A stretch of DNA of 64,000 nucleotides from the human T2T-CHM13v2.0 reference genome, Homo sapiens, in NCBI RefSeq assembly GCF_009914755.1, contig NC_060943.1, one strand, 5' to 3'. The notes beneath the pieces were generated by a model. The model ran no database searches and was not told the origin of the DNA. It saw only the letters and a program-made list of their open reading frames with translations. Every line of letters starts with the position of its first letter. Position 1 is the stretch's first letter. A program made the translations under genes and the position numbers. Positions 10,555 through 17,580 of this stretch are shown in pieces.

Positions 10555-12051
10555 TCAGGGCGCAGCGCGGCCCCCGTGCCGCTTCTGGTGCTCGTTGAGG
10601 TTGCAACGGTGGCTGAAAGGCTTCCCGCACTCGCCGCAAGCGTAGGGCCTCTCGCCCGTGTGCGTGCGCCGGTGGCTTAAGAGCTCCGACTTGCGCACGA
10701 AGGCCTTGCTGCAGTGGGCGCAGACGAACGGCCTCTCGCCAGAGTGCAGGCGCTGGTGCTGGCGCAGCTCGGAGCTGCCGCGGAAGGCCTTGCCGCATTC
10801 TGCGCAGGCGAAGGGTCGCTCTCCCGTGTGCGAAAGCCGGTGGCGCGCCAGGCCGGAACTGCCGCGGAAGGCCTTGCCGCAGTCGGCGCAGGCGAAGGGC
10901 TTGGCGCCCGAGTGCGTGCGCCGGTGGCTCAGTAGGTTGGAGCGCTGGCTGAAGGCCTTGCCGCACTGGGCGCACGCATGAGGCTTCTCGCCCGTGTGCA
11001 CGCGCCGGTGCTCCGCCAGGTAGGAGCCCATGACGAAAGCCTGGCCGCACTCGGCGCACTCGAAGGGCCGCTCACCAGTGTGCGTGCGCTGGTGCTGCAG
11101 GAGCTGCGAGCTCTCGCGGAAAGCCTTTCCGCACTCGGCGCAGGGGAAGGGCTTCTCGCTGCTGTGCGTGCGCCGGTGCTGCCGCAGCCCCGCCACACGC
11201 ACGAAGGCCTTGCCGCAGTCGGGACAGGCGTGTGGCCGTGCGCCCGCGTGGATCTTCAGGTGCTCGGCCAGGTTGGAGCTCTGGCTGAAGGCCTTGCCAC
11301 AGTCCCGGCAGGCGTGCGGCCGCGCGCCCGTGTGCACGCGCCGGTGCTCCAGGAAATTGGAGTTCCAGCTGAAGGCCTTGCCGCACTCCGGGCACTCGTA
11401 GGGCTTCTCGCCCGTGTGCGTGCGTCGGTGCTGCACCAGCGTGGTGCTTCGGCCGAAGGACTTGCCGCAGTCCGGGCAGCGGAAGGGCTTCAGGCCGCTG
11501 TGTGTCTCCTGGTGGTGGATGAGCTGCGAGTGCGCGCGGAAGGCCTTGCCGCACTCCCTGCAAGCGTAGGGCTTCTCGCCGCTGTGGATGCGCTGGTGCT
11601 GGCTGAGGTTGGAGCTCCAGGCGAAGGCCTTGCCGCACTCGGGGCACGTGTACGGCTTCTCGCCTGTGTGCACGCGCCGATGCTGCAGCAAGTAAGAGCC
11701 CTGGCTGAACGCCTTGCCGCACTCCCCGCACCGGCAGCCCGGCTCCTCTGGGAGAGGCGAAGGGCGCAACGCCCGGTCTGCAGGCTCGCTCCTGGGCCCA
11801 GCCCCGTCCCGCCCACCGTCTGCGGGGCCCAGCTCCCTGCCGGGGCCTCCCTGTTCGTCCGCCGCCCCCAGTGTGGCTTGCTGCCGCTGGCCGTCCCCTG
11901 CCTCCCTCGGAACCTCCGTGGAGTTTTCCCAGGCCCCCCAGCCTCCAGACACAGCCCCCTCAGAGAGGCCCCTCGTGGCAGTCTTCACATTGCAGAGGAC
12001 CTGGCCTTCCTCTGGGGCCACCTGCAGGGTCCACCCTCTTGGGGACTCCAT
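10555..12051 (-). CDS. ZNF497: Zinc finger protein 497, 498 aa, 14 C2H2 fingers, single coding exon as annotated
   Basis: ORF MESPRGWTLQ...HGGRAAP* with a tandem CxxC..HxxxH array and TGEKP linkers; acceptor ttttag| with exon start at 12065. Confidence 0.96.
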   Translation of the reverse strand: MESPRGWTLQVAPEEGQVLCNVKTATRGLSEGAVSGGWGAWENSTEVPREAGDGQRQQATLGAADEQGGPGRELGPADGGRDGAGPRSEPADRALRPSPLPEEPGCRCGECGKAFSQGSYLLQHRRVHTGEKPYTCPECGKAFAWSSNLSQHQRIHSGEKPYACRECGKAFRAHSQLIHHQETHSGLKPFRCPDCGKSFGRSTTLVQHRRTHTGEKPYECPECGKAFSWNSNFLEHRRVHTGARPHACRDCGKAFSQSSNLAEHLKIHAGARPHACPDCGKAFVRVAGLRQHRRTHSSEKPFPCAECGKAFRESSQLLQHQRTHTGERPFECAECGQAFVMGSYLAEHRRVHTGEKPHACAQCGKAFSQRSNLLSHRRTHSGAKPFACADCGKAFRGSSGLARHRLSHTGERPFACAECGKAFRGSSELRQHQRLHSGERPFVCAHCSKAFVRKSELLSHRRTHTGERPYACGECGKPFSHRCNLNEHQKRHGGRAAP

Positions 12052-12904
12052 CTCGCGCCTGTGACCTAAAACAGGAGAGAAAAGGCAAGTACCTTAGAGA
12101 ATACAAAGAACACCAGACAGAGGGCCTGAGGGGGACACGACGGTGGGTGGGCTGTCATCCCCCACTCTTCTCCTCCAGGTCCCTGGATGCCCAATGCCCT
12201 CTGGAGCCTGGAGCAGGAAGGCCAGCAGGAGGGCTAGACACTCGGGGGATGGGCCAGCACTCTGGGCCTGCCTGACAGGGCCACGTGCACATCCCCACAC
12301 CCGGCCCGGCCCAGCAGGAGGGGAGGGGGCGCCAGCATCGCAGAAGGACTCAAAGTTGCCCACGCACCTGCACTGGCCCTACTGTGGCACCACTCTCCTC
12401 TCCTTGCTTCACAGGGTGGGGCCCCAAGTGTCAAGAAGGTGGAGACTCCAGTTTGTGAGGAACACGATGGACCCGTCTCCATTCCTGAAGGCTGGAGGAC
12501 ACCGCCTGACCCAAACACAGCTATGTCTGCCTCACCCACTCCACCCTGGCCGGATCCCTGGGTAGTCCCCTCCACACAGTATGGGCAGCATGTCCAGGCT
12601 GGAGGATCTCAGTGGCTGTTACCCAGGCAATGTCCACACCAGGCCTCTGTGCAGGTCAGACCAGGTGGTCCAAGGCATGGGGTGGCTGTGCAGCCCAGAT
12701 CCCTGAGAGAGAGAGAGGCCAAGGGTGGGAGGGCCTCCTTGGTCCTAAGGCCATGCCTGCCTGTCCAGCCGATCCTTCCCACAGCGAAGTCTCTACAGCG
12801 AGCAAAACCCATCCTCATTTGCCCTGAGCACCTTATCATCCTTGTGTAGTCTCCAGCCCCGCTGCCAAGGCAGGGCAGGGACAAGTGTGTAGATGGTGCC
12901 ATAC

Positions 12905-13001
12905 CTGGAGGTGGGGCCTGGAAGGGGCCCAGGGGAGCCTCTTGCTCCTCTCCCTCCTCTGTCCTGGGGACCAGCTCCTCTTGGGGCCTGGGGGCTGGCA
13001 C
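12905..13001 (-). other. ZNF497: ZNF497 upstream exon (97 nt, phase 0 to 1), open in frame with the finger exon
   Basis: cttcctgtccccag|GTGCCAGCC...CCTCCAG|GTATGG; translates VPAPRPQEELVPRTEEGEEQEAPLGPFQAPPPG. Confidence 0.75.
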
Positions 13002-13293
13002 CTGGGGACAGGAAGGCAGCAGGGCAGGGTGAGGTGTTCAGCCTAGCAGATCTGAGGAGAAAACAAGGGGCATGCGGTGGCATGACCCACCCTTCTCTGC
13101 ACCTTCAGTTCTCAGGACACAATGCGGAGCACACAGGTGTGACTGGAGATCTCTGACTCTGCCGTCCAAGCCAAGACCACCAAACTCCCACCTGTCACCA
13201 TCACTTTCCCACAGCCCCCAGGCCCTCTCAGCCACCAACCCACGACTGGCCCCAGTGCTGGCTCAGCTGGGGTCGTGAGCAGGGGAAGCACAC

Positions 13294-13741
13294 CCAGCCC
13301 CCAGACCAGCCCCCACTCATCTGGAGTCCTGGCCCAGCTGACTCCTGCTGTAGCCGCTCTGCCAGGGCAGTGGCCTCCTCAGGGCTGCCTAGCCACTGCT
13401 CCTGCGTGTAGGCCTGGATCTCTGGGAGCAGTGTGCCCAATAACTGCTCCAGCACCAAGAGCTCCAGCATCTGCTCCTTGGAGCAGGCCTCAGGCATCAG
13501 CCACTGGCAACACAGCTCACGCAGCTGAGCCAGGGCCCCTCGGGGCCCTGCTGCCTTCTCATAGCAGAACCCCCAGAAGCACTGGCCAGGGCTCTTGGAG
13601 CTGGGCTCACCCACCATCAGTTCCAGTGGACTCGGGAAGACCTGGGGGGCCAGGGCTGATGCCTCACTCATCTGGGCAGCCATCCTGCCCCTTTCCTGGG
13701 AGGGGAGTGCAGCTGCATGGCCCAGGGTACTTTCTCTGCAG
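13294..13741 (-). pseudogene. SCAN-domain exon upstream of ZNF497 (open ORF, mutated donor)
   Basis: ATG at 13683: MAAQMSE...FCYEKAAGPRGALAQLRELCCQWLMPEACSKEQMLELLVLEQLLGTLLPEIQAYTQEQWLGSPEEATALAERL matches the SCAN consensus; acceptor tgtttccag| at 13741; CAG|ATGAGT at 13320. Confidence 0.85.
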
Positions 13742-14108
13742 CTGGAAACACAAAGGTGAGCCTGTGAGCACAGCAAGGCCACGAAGGTCCCCTCCTTGGG
13801 ACCACCTGAGACTGAGTAAAAATGGAAGAATGGGGGTATCGGCGTTTCTGGCCCCCAGTGTCAGCATCTTTGCCCACCTGTGTGTCCAGGTGCCTGAGGG
13901 ACACACTGAGGTGCCATGGCTGCTTGTACCATCCCTTCCCCCCGCCTCCCCGCTTTTCTTGAGGGTCCCTGCCCTGCCCTGTCTCCTTGGCACCCTTCAT
14001 CCCACACACAGAACAACTAAGACAGAGACTGTGAACAGGACACCCAGAGTCAGACCAGCAGATGGGTCCTGTTTGTCCCCTCCAGGAAGTGTTTTAAAAA
14101 TTTAAGTT

Positions 14109-16799: not shown

Positions 16800-17580
16800 G
16801 AAAGAATAAACGAGCAGGAGGAACGATGCCACAGAACTGATCGCCATAAGGCTCGCGTTCACCGAGAGAACAGCAAACGGGAGCCATTTCCGTCCCGACC
16901 ACGGTCGCCTCTGGCCCGTGCAGGGCCACTTCCGGGCCGCTCTGGACGGCGCGGAGGCCTATCTCTCGGTGGTCCCAGAGGGCCCAGCTCAGGGCCGAGG
17001 CCCGTCCTGCCCCGCGCGGCGGGAGTGGTTGGAGCCGGAGGGCGGATCTGTGCCTGGCCGAGGGTGTCCGTCGGCGTCACTCACCGTCCTCGGCCCGCCT
17101 CTGCGTCCACTAGGAGCGGCCTGAAAGAGGCCCGCACGCGGGCTCGAGCCGCGTGGAATGGTAGGAGGGCGGGCACCGGGTCTCCTGGGGGCGCGGTTGC
17201 ATTCGGCAGAGCGGCCCAAGGCGTCGCGTTTCTCCCCACTGCGCCTGCGTAACTATGCCGCGGCTGCGGGCGCGCGCCTTCTGGTTCCCATGGGGACGGC
17301 GCCACAGCCAAGCTACTCGGGCGTCCTGCGTTGCCATGGATGCGCTCCGCCCCTTCCTGCACCCGGCCAGCCTCTGCGGCACACACCCAACAGCTACACA
17401 GGCGCCTGGGGCTGCCCGGGTCGCGGACGCAAGTCGGGCCAACGTAGCTTCTCCCTGGCGGTCCTCCTCCGGCCCCAGGCCGTCTTTACCACCCTGGAAC
17501 CTTGCTGAGTTGACGCCACTGAGCTGCGTCTCACACCCACGCGCTGTGGAACACCCACCAAGCTGGAATCCACGCGGTTT
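16800..17580 (-). promoter_or_regulatory. ZNF497: ZNF497 CpG-island promoter and exon 1 (donor after 17085)
   Basis: CpG-dense; - strand donor CG|GTGAGT (actcac 17079-17084); NRF1-like TGCGCCTGCG ~17240; X-box-like GTTGCCATGGATGC 17330-17343. Confidence 0.75.

What the first reader, a model, noticed from the sequence alone, without database searches (positions are those of the whole stretch)
12052..13741. Hidden SCAN exon of ZNF497, apparently silenced by a single +1 splice-donor change
Seen: an uninterrupted SCAN-domain ORF (ATG 13683) with a good acceptor at 13741. It ends ...GPGLQ CAG|ATGAGT, a consensus GTGAGT donor with G>A at +1 (plus-strand T at 13320). The next exon (13001-12905) starts in phase 0 and ends in phase 1. 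The finger exon is entered in phase 1 with 14 open nt before the annotated ATG (G|GT CAC AGG CGC GAG ATG). With GT restored, the product is an in-frame 656-aa SCAN-linker-14xC2H2 protein. A weak in-frame GT 27 nt further on (TGG|GTGTGC, exon end 13294) could still give a 665-aa form today. Known: SCAN is a dimerisation domain encoded in one exon in ZSCAN genes, and ZNF497 as I recall it is annotated without one. Inference: ZNF497 is a ZSCAN gene that recently lost, or rarely uses, its effector exon.
Basis: partly seen in the sequence, partly recalled or inferred. Interest (0 to 1): 0.85.

Follow-up and report, generated by a model that had tools for sequence, protein, structure and literature searches.

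The report
Decayed SCAN exon inside ZNF497
The first intron of human ZNF497 still holds the gene's own former SCAN-domain exon, no longer spliced in and visibly decayed, which makes this an ordinary case of a zinc-finger gene losing its partner-binding domain.

Summary
The sequence facts are confirmed. A 184-codon open frame (13782-13228, minus strand) carries a near full-length SCAN domain (Pfam 101.5 bits). It ends at CAG|ATGAGT (13321|13320).

The main idea is supported. Predicted ZNF497 proteins of colugo and elephant join a SCAN domain, the same linker exon and the ZNF497 pre-finger region. ZNF446 and MZF1 have GTGAGT exactly where human ZNF497 has ATGAGT.

"A single, recent change" is not supported:
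- The SCAN sequence breaks 5 otherwise invariant columns.
- Its tree branch is three times the colugo one.
- It ranks 58th of 73 human SCAN matches.
- Its CpG content is intron-like (0.13).
- The old linker exon began at 13051, and there the human sequence has a TAG and a frameshift.
- A 26-codon exon of the colugo model has no human match.

It is not truly hidden either. RefSeq already marks it as LOC100419840, "ZNF446 pseudogene", a label that looks wrong, because it is ZNF497's own vestige.

Timing and any residual use could not be tested, because no primate DNA or RNA data were available. This is a new member of a known kind, of modest interest.

The parts
13321..13741 (-). Relic SCAN exon of ZNF497. 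The acceptor AG is at 13743-13742, the ATG is at 13683, and 121 codons run to the old donor.
   Evidence: Sequence and ORF. Colugo ZNF497 residues 103-232 align without gaps to 13737-13348 at 65% identity.
13336..13584 (-). SCAN domain proper (Pfam PF02023, profile positions 6-88 of 90).
   Evidence: 101.5 bits and 103.1 bits. The closest solved structure is the MZF1 SCAN domain 2fi2, E 7.8e-27.
13315..13320 (-). Dead splice donor ATGAGT. The paralogues have GTGAGT at the position-homologous site.
   Evidence: The flanking context scores at the 99.3rd percentile of 270 real donors.
13293..13316 (-). Two tandem 12-nt units (10 of 12 identical) just 3' of the dead donor. The second unit carries the weak in-frame donor TGG|GTGTGC (13294|13293).
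   Evidence: Tandem units. The donor scores at the 7.4th percentile of real donors.
13002..13051 (-). 5' part of the ancestral linker exon, now intronic. The acceptor ttctcctcag|ATC is the same as at ZNF446 exon 3. There is an in-frame TAG at 13045-13043, and the stretch is 4 nt shorter than the colugo frame.
   Evidence: The colugo exon starts IC.... The acceptor scores at the 86.6th percentile.
12905..13001 (-). Present exon 2 of ZNF497, annotated as 5'UTR. It is the 3' part of the ancestral coding linker exon, running from phase 0 to phase 1.
   Evidence: RefSeq exon. It matches the colugo sequence (residues 245-284, 67.5%) and the elephant sequence (residues 83-115, 60.6%).
12052..12065 (-). 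14 open nt of the finger exon before the annotated ATG. They are coding in the colugo model (GHRGEVE versus human GHRREME).
10555..12051 (-). Annotated ZNF497 coding sequence: 498 aa with 14 C2H2 finger matches.
17085..17159 (-). ZNF497 exon 1 (non-coding). It is spliced past the relic to 13001 or to 12065.

Best explanation
The stretch is the vestigial N-terminal coding part of ZNF497 itself. The ancestral eutherian gene was built as 5' exon, SCAN exon, linker exon of about 151 nt, possibly one small exon, and finger exon. That matches its nearest relatives ZNF446 and MZF1.

In the human lineage three things changed:
- The SCAN exon dropped out of the mRNA. Its donor now reads AT instead of GT.
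- The linker exon is now entered through an inner acceptor (13001) and serves as 5'UTR.
- Translation starts at an internal ATG in the finger exon.

The product is a SCAN-less 498-aa protein. The relic has since drifted like intron DNA while happening to stay open.

What is shown and what is inferred:
- Shown: the anatomy, the homology and the decay.
- Inferred: that the donor change, rather than another lesion, came first, and that the loss dates back tens of millions of years.
For: Orthologues:
- Colugo 'ZNF497' (P0005, 781 aa, 77% identical to the human protein) carries PF02023.
- Elephant G3U970 (P0129) has SCAN, then linker VPAPHPSEELV..., then the ZNF497 pre-finger region.
- Of the 230 stored proteins, only these 2 match the human pre-finger region (E 6.6e-22 and 2.2e-10) and the linker exon.
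- All three blocks map in order to 13737-13348, 13019-12900 and 12066-11722.

Gene structure:
- ZNF446 and MZF1 end their SCAN exon in phase 0, and their next exon (190 and 184 nt) ends in phase 1.
- Both have TGG|GTGAGT 9 codons after GLQ/GLR, exactly where human ZNF497 has CAG|ATGAGT.
- The ZNF446 exon-3 acceptor ttctcctcag|ATC recurs at 13051.

Decay:
- The relic ranks 58th of 73 human SCAN matches. ZNF446 scores 138 bits and MZF1 129.9.
- It has 10 private residues and 5 breaks of otherwise invariant columns, against 4 and 1 in colugo.
- Human and colugo share 54 of 80 SCAN residues, against 73 of 80 for ZNF446 in the same species pair.
- The tree puts human and colugo together (support 92/84), with branch lengths 0.40 and 0.13.
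- 11 changes are assigned to the human lineage, 3 to colugo and 12 are ambiguous.
- CpG o/e is 0.13. Flanking introns give 0.17-0.22, the ZNF446 and MZF1 SCAN exons 0.35 and 0.41, and the ZNF497 finger coding sequence 0.84.
- The coding signature across codon positions is flattened: 0.79/0.79/0.69 against 0.87/0.85/0.66 for ZNF446 versus MZF1.
Against: - Both orthologue proteins are computer predictions, and I saw no RNA support for them.
- The colugo model leaves the SCAN exon 9 codons before the homologous donor.
- The elephant model's finger region looks broken, and its SCAN groups with elephant MZF1 in the short 64-80-column tree.
- The relic has no stop in 184 codons and no indel against colugo over 130 codons. 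My neutral simulation keeps 121 codons open in only 8-15% of runs at the divergence that gives 14-20 residue changes. Some lingering constraint is therefore not excluded.
- No primate DNA, RNA-seq or GENCODE could be consulted.
- The protein searches listed no primate ZNF497 at all, not even the human protein. They say nothing about primates.
Confidence: 0.78

Rival explanations
1. The SCAN exon was lost only recently or is still used now and then. The result would be a 665-aa SCAN-ZNF497 through the weak donor at 13294, or N-terminally extended forms without SCAN through inner donors.
For: - The frame is open and free of indels against colugo.
- ATG 13683 aligns with a Met in colugo.
- The joins are in frame: 665 aa through 13294, 558 aa through 13615 to 13001, and 527 aa through 13611 to 12065.
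- Donors 13615 and 13611 score at the 37th and 33rd percentile of real donors.
Against: - Donor 13294 is at the 7.4th percentile of real donors.
- No RefSeq transcript uses the exon.
- The SCAN sequence has lost 5 otherwise invariant residues and has intron-like CpG content.
- The strong upstream acceptor at 13051 leads straight into a TAG.
Confidence: 0.12
2. The RefSeq reading. This is a separate pseudogene copy of ZNF446 (LOC100419840) that happens to lie in ZNF497 intron 1.
For: ZNF446 is the best human match of the relic: 65% identity, E 1e-28. It is also the name given in the supplied annotation.
Against: - 65% protein identity and 75% DNA identity (201 of 267) are no closer than ZNF446 is to MZF1 (212 of 267).
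- The relic's nearest SCAN in the tree is that of colugo ZNF497.
- It keeps intron-exon structure, strand, order and phases that run on into ZNF497's own exons.
- Beyond the SCAN part, ZNF446 proteins gave only weak matches in proline-rich stretches, E >= 0.002.
- 8 of 8 minus-strand ORFs tested between 12066 and 13083 have no Pfam family, so there is no KRAB relic.
Confidence: 0.05
3. A chance open frame in GC-rich DNA that merely resembles SCAN.
For: Long chance ORFs are common here: a 276-aa antisense ORF and stop-free runs of up to 203 codons in the flanking introns.
Against: Pfam E 2.3e-29 over 83 of 90 profile positions, and PDB 2fi2 at E 7.8e-27.
Confidence: 0.01

Closest known systems
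ZNF446 and MZF1, the neighbouring chr19q13.43 SCAN-zinc-finger genes
   Same: - The SCAN domain lies in one exon that ends in phase 0, 9 codons after GLQ/GLR.
- The next exon ends in phase 1.
- The linker-exon acceptor ttctcctcag|ATC is identical in ZNF446.
- The 89-codon alignment has no gaps.
   Different: - Their donors read GTGAGT and are in use.
- Their SCAN scores are 138 and 129.9 bits against 103.1.
- ZNF446 also has a KRAB-type exon, of which ZNF497 shows no trace.
Effector-domain loss by degeneration in C2H2-ZNF genes (Tadepally, Burger and Aubry 2008, PMC2443715; passages read)
   Same: The paper reports three things that fit this case. There is a degenerate SCAN domain in the matching exon of human and mouse ZNF187. 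There is a KRAB-like sequence left in an intron of the chimpanzee orthologue of ZNF307. And it calls loss of SCAN or KRAB 'by deletion or degeneration' a recurrent theme.
   Different: ZNF497 does not occur in that paper's main text; two searches found no paper holding both 'ZNF497' and 'SCAN domain'.
Predicted SCAN-ZNF497 proteins of colugo (P0005) and elephant (P0129)
   Same: Same locus-specific linker and pre-finger sequences, with a SCAN domain upstream of them.
   Different: - Their SCAN domains are closer to consensus. Colugo has 1 break of an otherwise invariant column and the elephant has 2, in the 64 of 80 columns it covers; human has 5.
- Both are unverified models.

Membership tests
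SCAN domain (Pfam PF02023) | Profile match above the curated cut-off over most of the domain | tested here: met
   101.5 bits against a cut-off of 27, profile positions 6-88 of 90. 103.1 bits in the genome scan.
SCAN domain (Pfam PF02023) | Residues that are invariant in close functional relatives are kept | tested here: not met
   5 breaks of otherwise invariant columns (E11K, E17G, V61T, P66L, V76A) in an 80-column alignment of 20 sequences. Rank 58 of 73 human matches.
SCAN domain (Pfam PF02023) | Part of an expressed protein: the exon is spliced into an mRNA | tested here: not met
   Neither of the 2 RefSeq mRNAs includes it, and the position-homologous donor reads AT. GENCODE and RNA-seq were not available.
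SCAN domain (Pfam PF02023) | Mediates homo- or hetero-dimerisation | not testable with these tools
   The two-protein predictor was off and there is no experiment. The role of SCAN as a dimerisation domain is as stated in PMC2443715.
Pseudogene copy of ZNF446 (RefSeq label LOC100419840) | Derived from ZNF446, so clearly closer to ZNF446 than to other SCAN genes and not part of the host gene | tested here: not met
   DNA identity to ZNF446 is 201 of 267 and to MZF1 204 of 267. It is sister to the colugo ZNF497 SCAN. Its phases and order run on into ZNF497's exons.
Lineage-specific loss of an effector-domain exon in a C2H2-ZNF gene | Orthologues elsewhere encode the domain joined to the same finger gene | tested here: met
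   Colugo P0005 and elephant P0129, both predictions only.
Lineage-specific loss of an effector-domain exon in a C2H2-ZNF gene | A recognisable but degenerate relic lies at the syntenic place in the intron | tested here: met
U12-type or AT-AC intron, as a way in which ATGAGT could still be used | AT at the 5' end paired with AC at the 3' end, plus the U12 5' splice-site consensus (recalled, not from a call) | tested here: not met
   The site reads ATGAGT, and both downstream acceptors (13051, 13001) end in AG.

The most novel reading that the evidence does not exclude
Human ZNF497 still makes low-abundance, unannotated isoforms that start at ATG 13683. One would be a 665-aa protein with a divergent SCAN domain, made through the weak donor at 13294. 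Others would be 558- or 527-aa forms with a new N-terminus, made through donors 13615 or 13611. Lingering selection on such isoforms would explain why the frame has stayed open and free of indels.
Probability: 0.1. Interest if true: 0.5.

Novelty: new member of a known kind. Interest (0 to 1): 0.3.

Why it matters
- It corrects an annotation. LOC100419840 is better read as the vestigial N-terminal exons of ZNF497 than as a copy of ZNF446, and ZNF497's 5'UTR exon 2 is a former coding exon.
- It gives a clean, lesion-by-lesion example of how a SCAN-zinc-finger gene becomes a bare poly-zinc-finger gene: a dead donor, a shifted acceptor and a new start codon.
- It implies that human ZNF497 is cut off from the SCAN dimerisation network that its colugo counterpart may still join.
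- It does not open a new kind of biology.

Tried and rejected
- Protein search with human ZNF497 residues 1-110 found nothing: 77 candidates were scored and 585 were left out.
- The whole-protein search was swamped by other zinc-finger genes. One of the 120 listed was named ZNF497, and the human protein itself was not listed.
- The search with colugo residues 100-420 added only the elephant protein. P0121 (golden mole) turned out to be two ZNF446-like SCAN copies, and P0122 and P0126, also fetched, are multi-SCAN models.
- The Atlas search gave only generic SCAN clusters with scores of 0.81, below the level that means anything.
- I first thought the GT at 13294 was the ancestral donor. A gapped tblastn alignment put ZNF446's terminal Trp against ZNF497's GGW, and GGCTGG|GTG recurs there. 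I rejected this because the gapless 89-codon alignment and the elephant junction both place the old donor at 13321|13320.
- I looked for a KRAB or other relic between 12066 and 13083. 8 of 8 minus-strand ORFs tested had no Pfam family.
- I looked for the colugo 26-codon exon in the human sequence. There was no match at E <= 10.
- Literature: 36 papers mention ZNF497 (30 listed) and none of them also holds 'SCAN domain'. No paper holds LOC100419840, 'ZNF446 pseudogene' or ZNF446P. No paper holds the four terms. PMC3921586 lists ZNF497 only in a table of predicted retrovirus binders. Nowick 2011 (PMC3126818, passages read) says gain or loss of SCAN is very rare among the primates it compared. 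Supplementary tables were closed.
- Dating is rough. The simulation gives 5.0, 9.4, 14.5 and 20.1 residue changes in the 80 columns at 3, 6, 10 and 15% neutral divergence. Observed changes are 11 assigned to the human lineage plus up to 12 ambiguous. Turning this into 'tens of millions of years' rests on a recalled neutral rate.

Full report
WHAT IS THERE. On the minus strand an open frame runs from 13782 to 13228 (184 aa).
- acceptor tgtttccag|C, with the exon starting at 13741;
- ATG at 13683;
- CAG|ATGAGT at 13321|13320;
- TGG|GTGTGC at 13294|13293;
- exon 13001-12905, ending CAG|GTATGG;
- the finger exon starting at 12065, with 14 open nt before ATG 12051.

Pfam finds a SCAN domain at E 2.3e-29 and 101.5 bits, covering profile positions 6-88 of 90. 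A scan of the whole genome with the same model places it at 13336-13584 with 103.1 bits. The closest solved structure is the MZF1 SCAN domain, 2fi2, at E 7.8e-27. The in-silico joins give 656 aa (exon end 13321) and 665 aa (exon end 13294), each with one terminal stop. RefSeq has two ZNF497 mRNAs and neither uses the exon.

WHOSE EXON IS IT. RefSeq places a pseudogene on it, LOC100419840 'ZNF446 pseudogene', at 12465-13657. ZNF446 is indeed the best human match, but only at 65% identity; MZF1 follows at 61%. At DNA level, over 267 gapless positions, the relic is 201/267 identical to ZNF446 and 204/267 to MZF1. Those two are 212/267 to each other. So this is an old lineage of its own and not a copy of ZNF446.

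A protein search with human ZNF497 returned one protein named ZNF497 among the 120 listed. It is colugo P0005, 781 aa, 77% identical, and it carries PF02023. A second search with its residues 100-420 added elephant G3U970 (P0129), which reads SCAN, then VPAPHPSEELV..., then the ZNF497 pre-finger region.

The colugo protein maps onto the human locus in order:
- residues 103-232 to 13737-13348 (65% identity, no gap);
- residues 245-284 to 13019-12900;
- residues 310-420 to 12066-11722.

In the last block GHRGEVE lies against human GHRREME, so the 14 nt before the human ATG are coding in colugo. In a tree of 20 SCAN sequences the human relic and the colugo ZNF497 SCAN are sisters, with support 92/84. 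The relic is therefore ZNF497's own former SCAN exon.

THE DONOR. ZNF446 and MZF1 end their SCAN exon in phase 0, and their next exon (190 and 184 nt) ends in phase 1. ZNF497 has the same phase pattern. Their exon ends read GGC TGG|gtgagt and AGA TGG|gtgagt. From the SCAN core to that point, all three genes align over 89 codons without a gap, and human ZNF497 ends at CAG|ATGAGT. The elephant model also changes exon 9 codons after GLW.

I trained position matrices on 270 GT donors and 276 acceptors from 20 exon-rich 10-kb stretches of chr19 plus the window, leaving ZNF497's own sites out. The 7 non-GT positions of the dead site score at the 99.3rd percentile of real donors. The in-frame GT 27 nt downstream is weak: 7.4th percentile of real donors and 84th of decoy GTs. 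It lies in the second of two tandem 12-nt units, 10 of 12 identical.

NOT A SINGLE LESION. The acceptor of ZNF446 exon 3, ttctcctcag|ATC, recurs letter for letter at 13051, and the colugo linker exon begins IC.... From 13051 the human sequence reads I-C-stop, with the TAG at 13045-13043. It reaches the 'RP' of the linker 4 nt sooner than the colugo frame does. The old exon start therefore has a stop and a frameshift. SCAN exon joined to 13051 terminates at codon 123.

Both acceptors are strong: 13051 is at the 86.6th percentile and 13001 at the 85.5th. Present mRNAs use the inner one, so today's 5'UTR exon 2 is the 3' part of a former coding exon. A 26-codon exon of the colugo model (…GGPKVKQEDDSE…) has no human match at E <= 10. 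No KRAB or other domain relic was found in 8 of 8 minus-strand ORFs tested between 12066 and 13083.

DECAY OF THE SCAN SEQUENCE.
- The relic ranks 58th of 73 human SCAN matches. Below it are only 15 matches, 7 of which contain stop codons. ZNF446 scores 138 bits and MZF1 129.9.
- In an 80-column gapless alignment it has 10 private residues and breaks 5 otherwise invariant columns. Colugo has 4 and 1.
- Human and colugo share 54 of 80 residues. ZNF446 of the same two species shares 73 of 80.
- Branch lengths are 0.40 for human and 0.13 for colugo.
- By outgroup comparison, 11 differences fall on the human lineage and 3 on the colugo lineage, and 12 are ambiguous.
- CpG observed/expected is 0.13. 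Flanking introns give 0.17-0.22, the ZNF446 and MZF1 SCAN exons 0.35 and 0.41, and the ZNF497 finger coding sequence 0.84.
- Identity by codon position is flat (0.79/0.79/0.69 to ZNF446). The functional pair ZNF446/MZF1 shows 0.87/0.85/0.66.
- A crude neutral simulation needs about 6-15% divergence to give 9-20 residue changes.

The relic has therefore evolved without SCAN-type constraint for a long time. 'Recently lost' is not supported, although the order of the lesions is unknown.

WHAT SPEAKS THE OTHER WAY. The frame is still open over 184 codons and has no indel against colugo over 130 codons. In the simulation, 121 codons stay stop-free in 15% of runs at 10% divergence and 8% at 15%. Indels were not modelled. 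Stop-free stretches are not rare here: 2.5% of 363-nt windows in the flanking introns, and a 276-aa antisense ORF. Still, some lingering use cannot be excluded. Inner donors at 13615 (phase 0, 37th percentile) and 13611 (phase 1, 33rd percentile) would give in-frame 558- and 527-aa products.

Both orthologue proteins are predictions. The colugo model leaves the SCAN exon 9 codons early. The elephant model has damaged-looking fingers, and its SCAN groups with elephant MZF1 in the short tree. The protein searches listed no primate ZNF497, not even the human one, so they are silent on primates. No primate DNA, RNA data or GENCODE was at hand.

COMPARISON WITH WHAT IS KNOWN. Loss of SCAN or KRAB 'by deletion or degeneration' is described as a recurrent theme in C2H2-ZNF evolution. 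Published examples include a degenerate SCAN in human and mouse ZNF187 and a KRAB-like sequence left in an intron (Tadepally et al. 2008, PMC2443715; passages read). Nowick et al. 2011 call such gain or loss very rare among the primates they compared (PMC3126818; passages read). I found no paper that links ZNF497 to SCAN. Supplementary tables were closed and may list it.

VERDICT. This is a real, well-preserved relic of ZNF497's own SCAN exon with a dead donor. It is old rather than recent, has several lesions rather than one, and is already flagged in RefSeq under a name that looks wrong. It is a new member of a known kind, interest about 0.3.

Noticed in passing
window 13275-14105 (+): A 276-aa ORF lies antisense to the SCAN relic. 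It shows how easily long open frames arise in this GC-rich stretch.
   Followed up: partly
window 12049-12051 (-): The annotated ZNF497 start codon aligns with a Val in the colugo model (GHRREMES against GHRGEVES). The human start may therefore be a derived ATG, or the colugo Val may be the derived state.
   Followed up: no
window 13668-13718 (-): An out-of-frame ATG at 13718 opens a 16-codon upstream ORF that overlaps ATG 13683. This is read off the sequence.
   Followed up: no
window 13611-13615 (-): Two moderate GT donors lie inside the relic: ATG|GTGGGT at 13615 (phase 0) and TGG|GTGAGC at 13611 (phase 1). They would give in-frame 558- and 527-aa products without SCAN.
   Followed up: partly
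window 10555-12051 (-): The ZNF497 finger coding sequence has CpG o/e 0.84 at 70% GC, like a CpG island. This is in sharp contrast to the relic and the introns.
   Followed up: no
protein P0129 (elephant G3U970): The finger region of this model reads as if frameshifted in places (for example ...AAHPHQREAVRVPRVRQAFRAHSQLIHHQ...). The elephant ZNF497 may be a poor model or itself decaying.
   Followed up: no
protein P0121 (golden mole, 'ZNF263-like'): It holds two nearly identical ZNF446-like SCAN domains in tandem and no fingers. This may be a local duplication or a model artefact.
   Followed up: no
window 12465-12904 (-): RefSeq's pseudogene LOC100419840 extends about 440 nt beyond exon 2 into the intron. 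There I found no significant similarity to ZNF446 proteins, only matches at E >= 0.002 in proline-rich stretches.
   Followed up: partly
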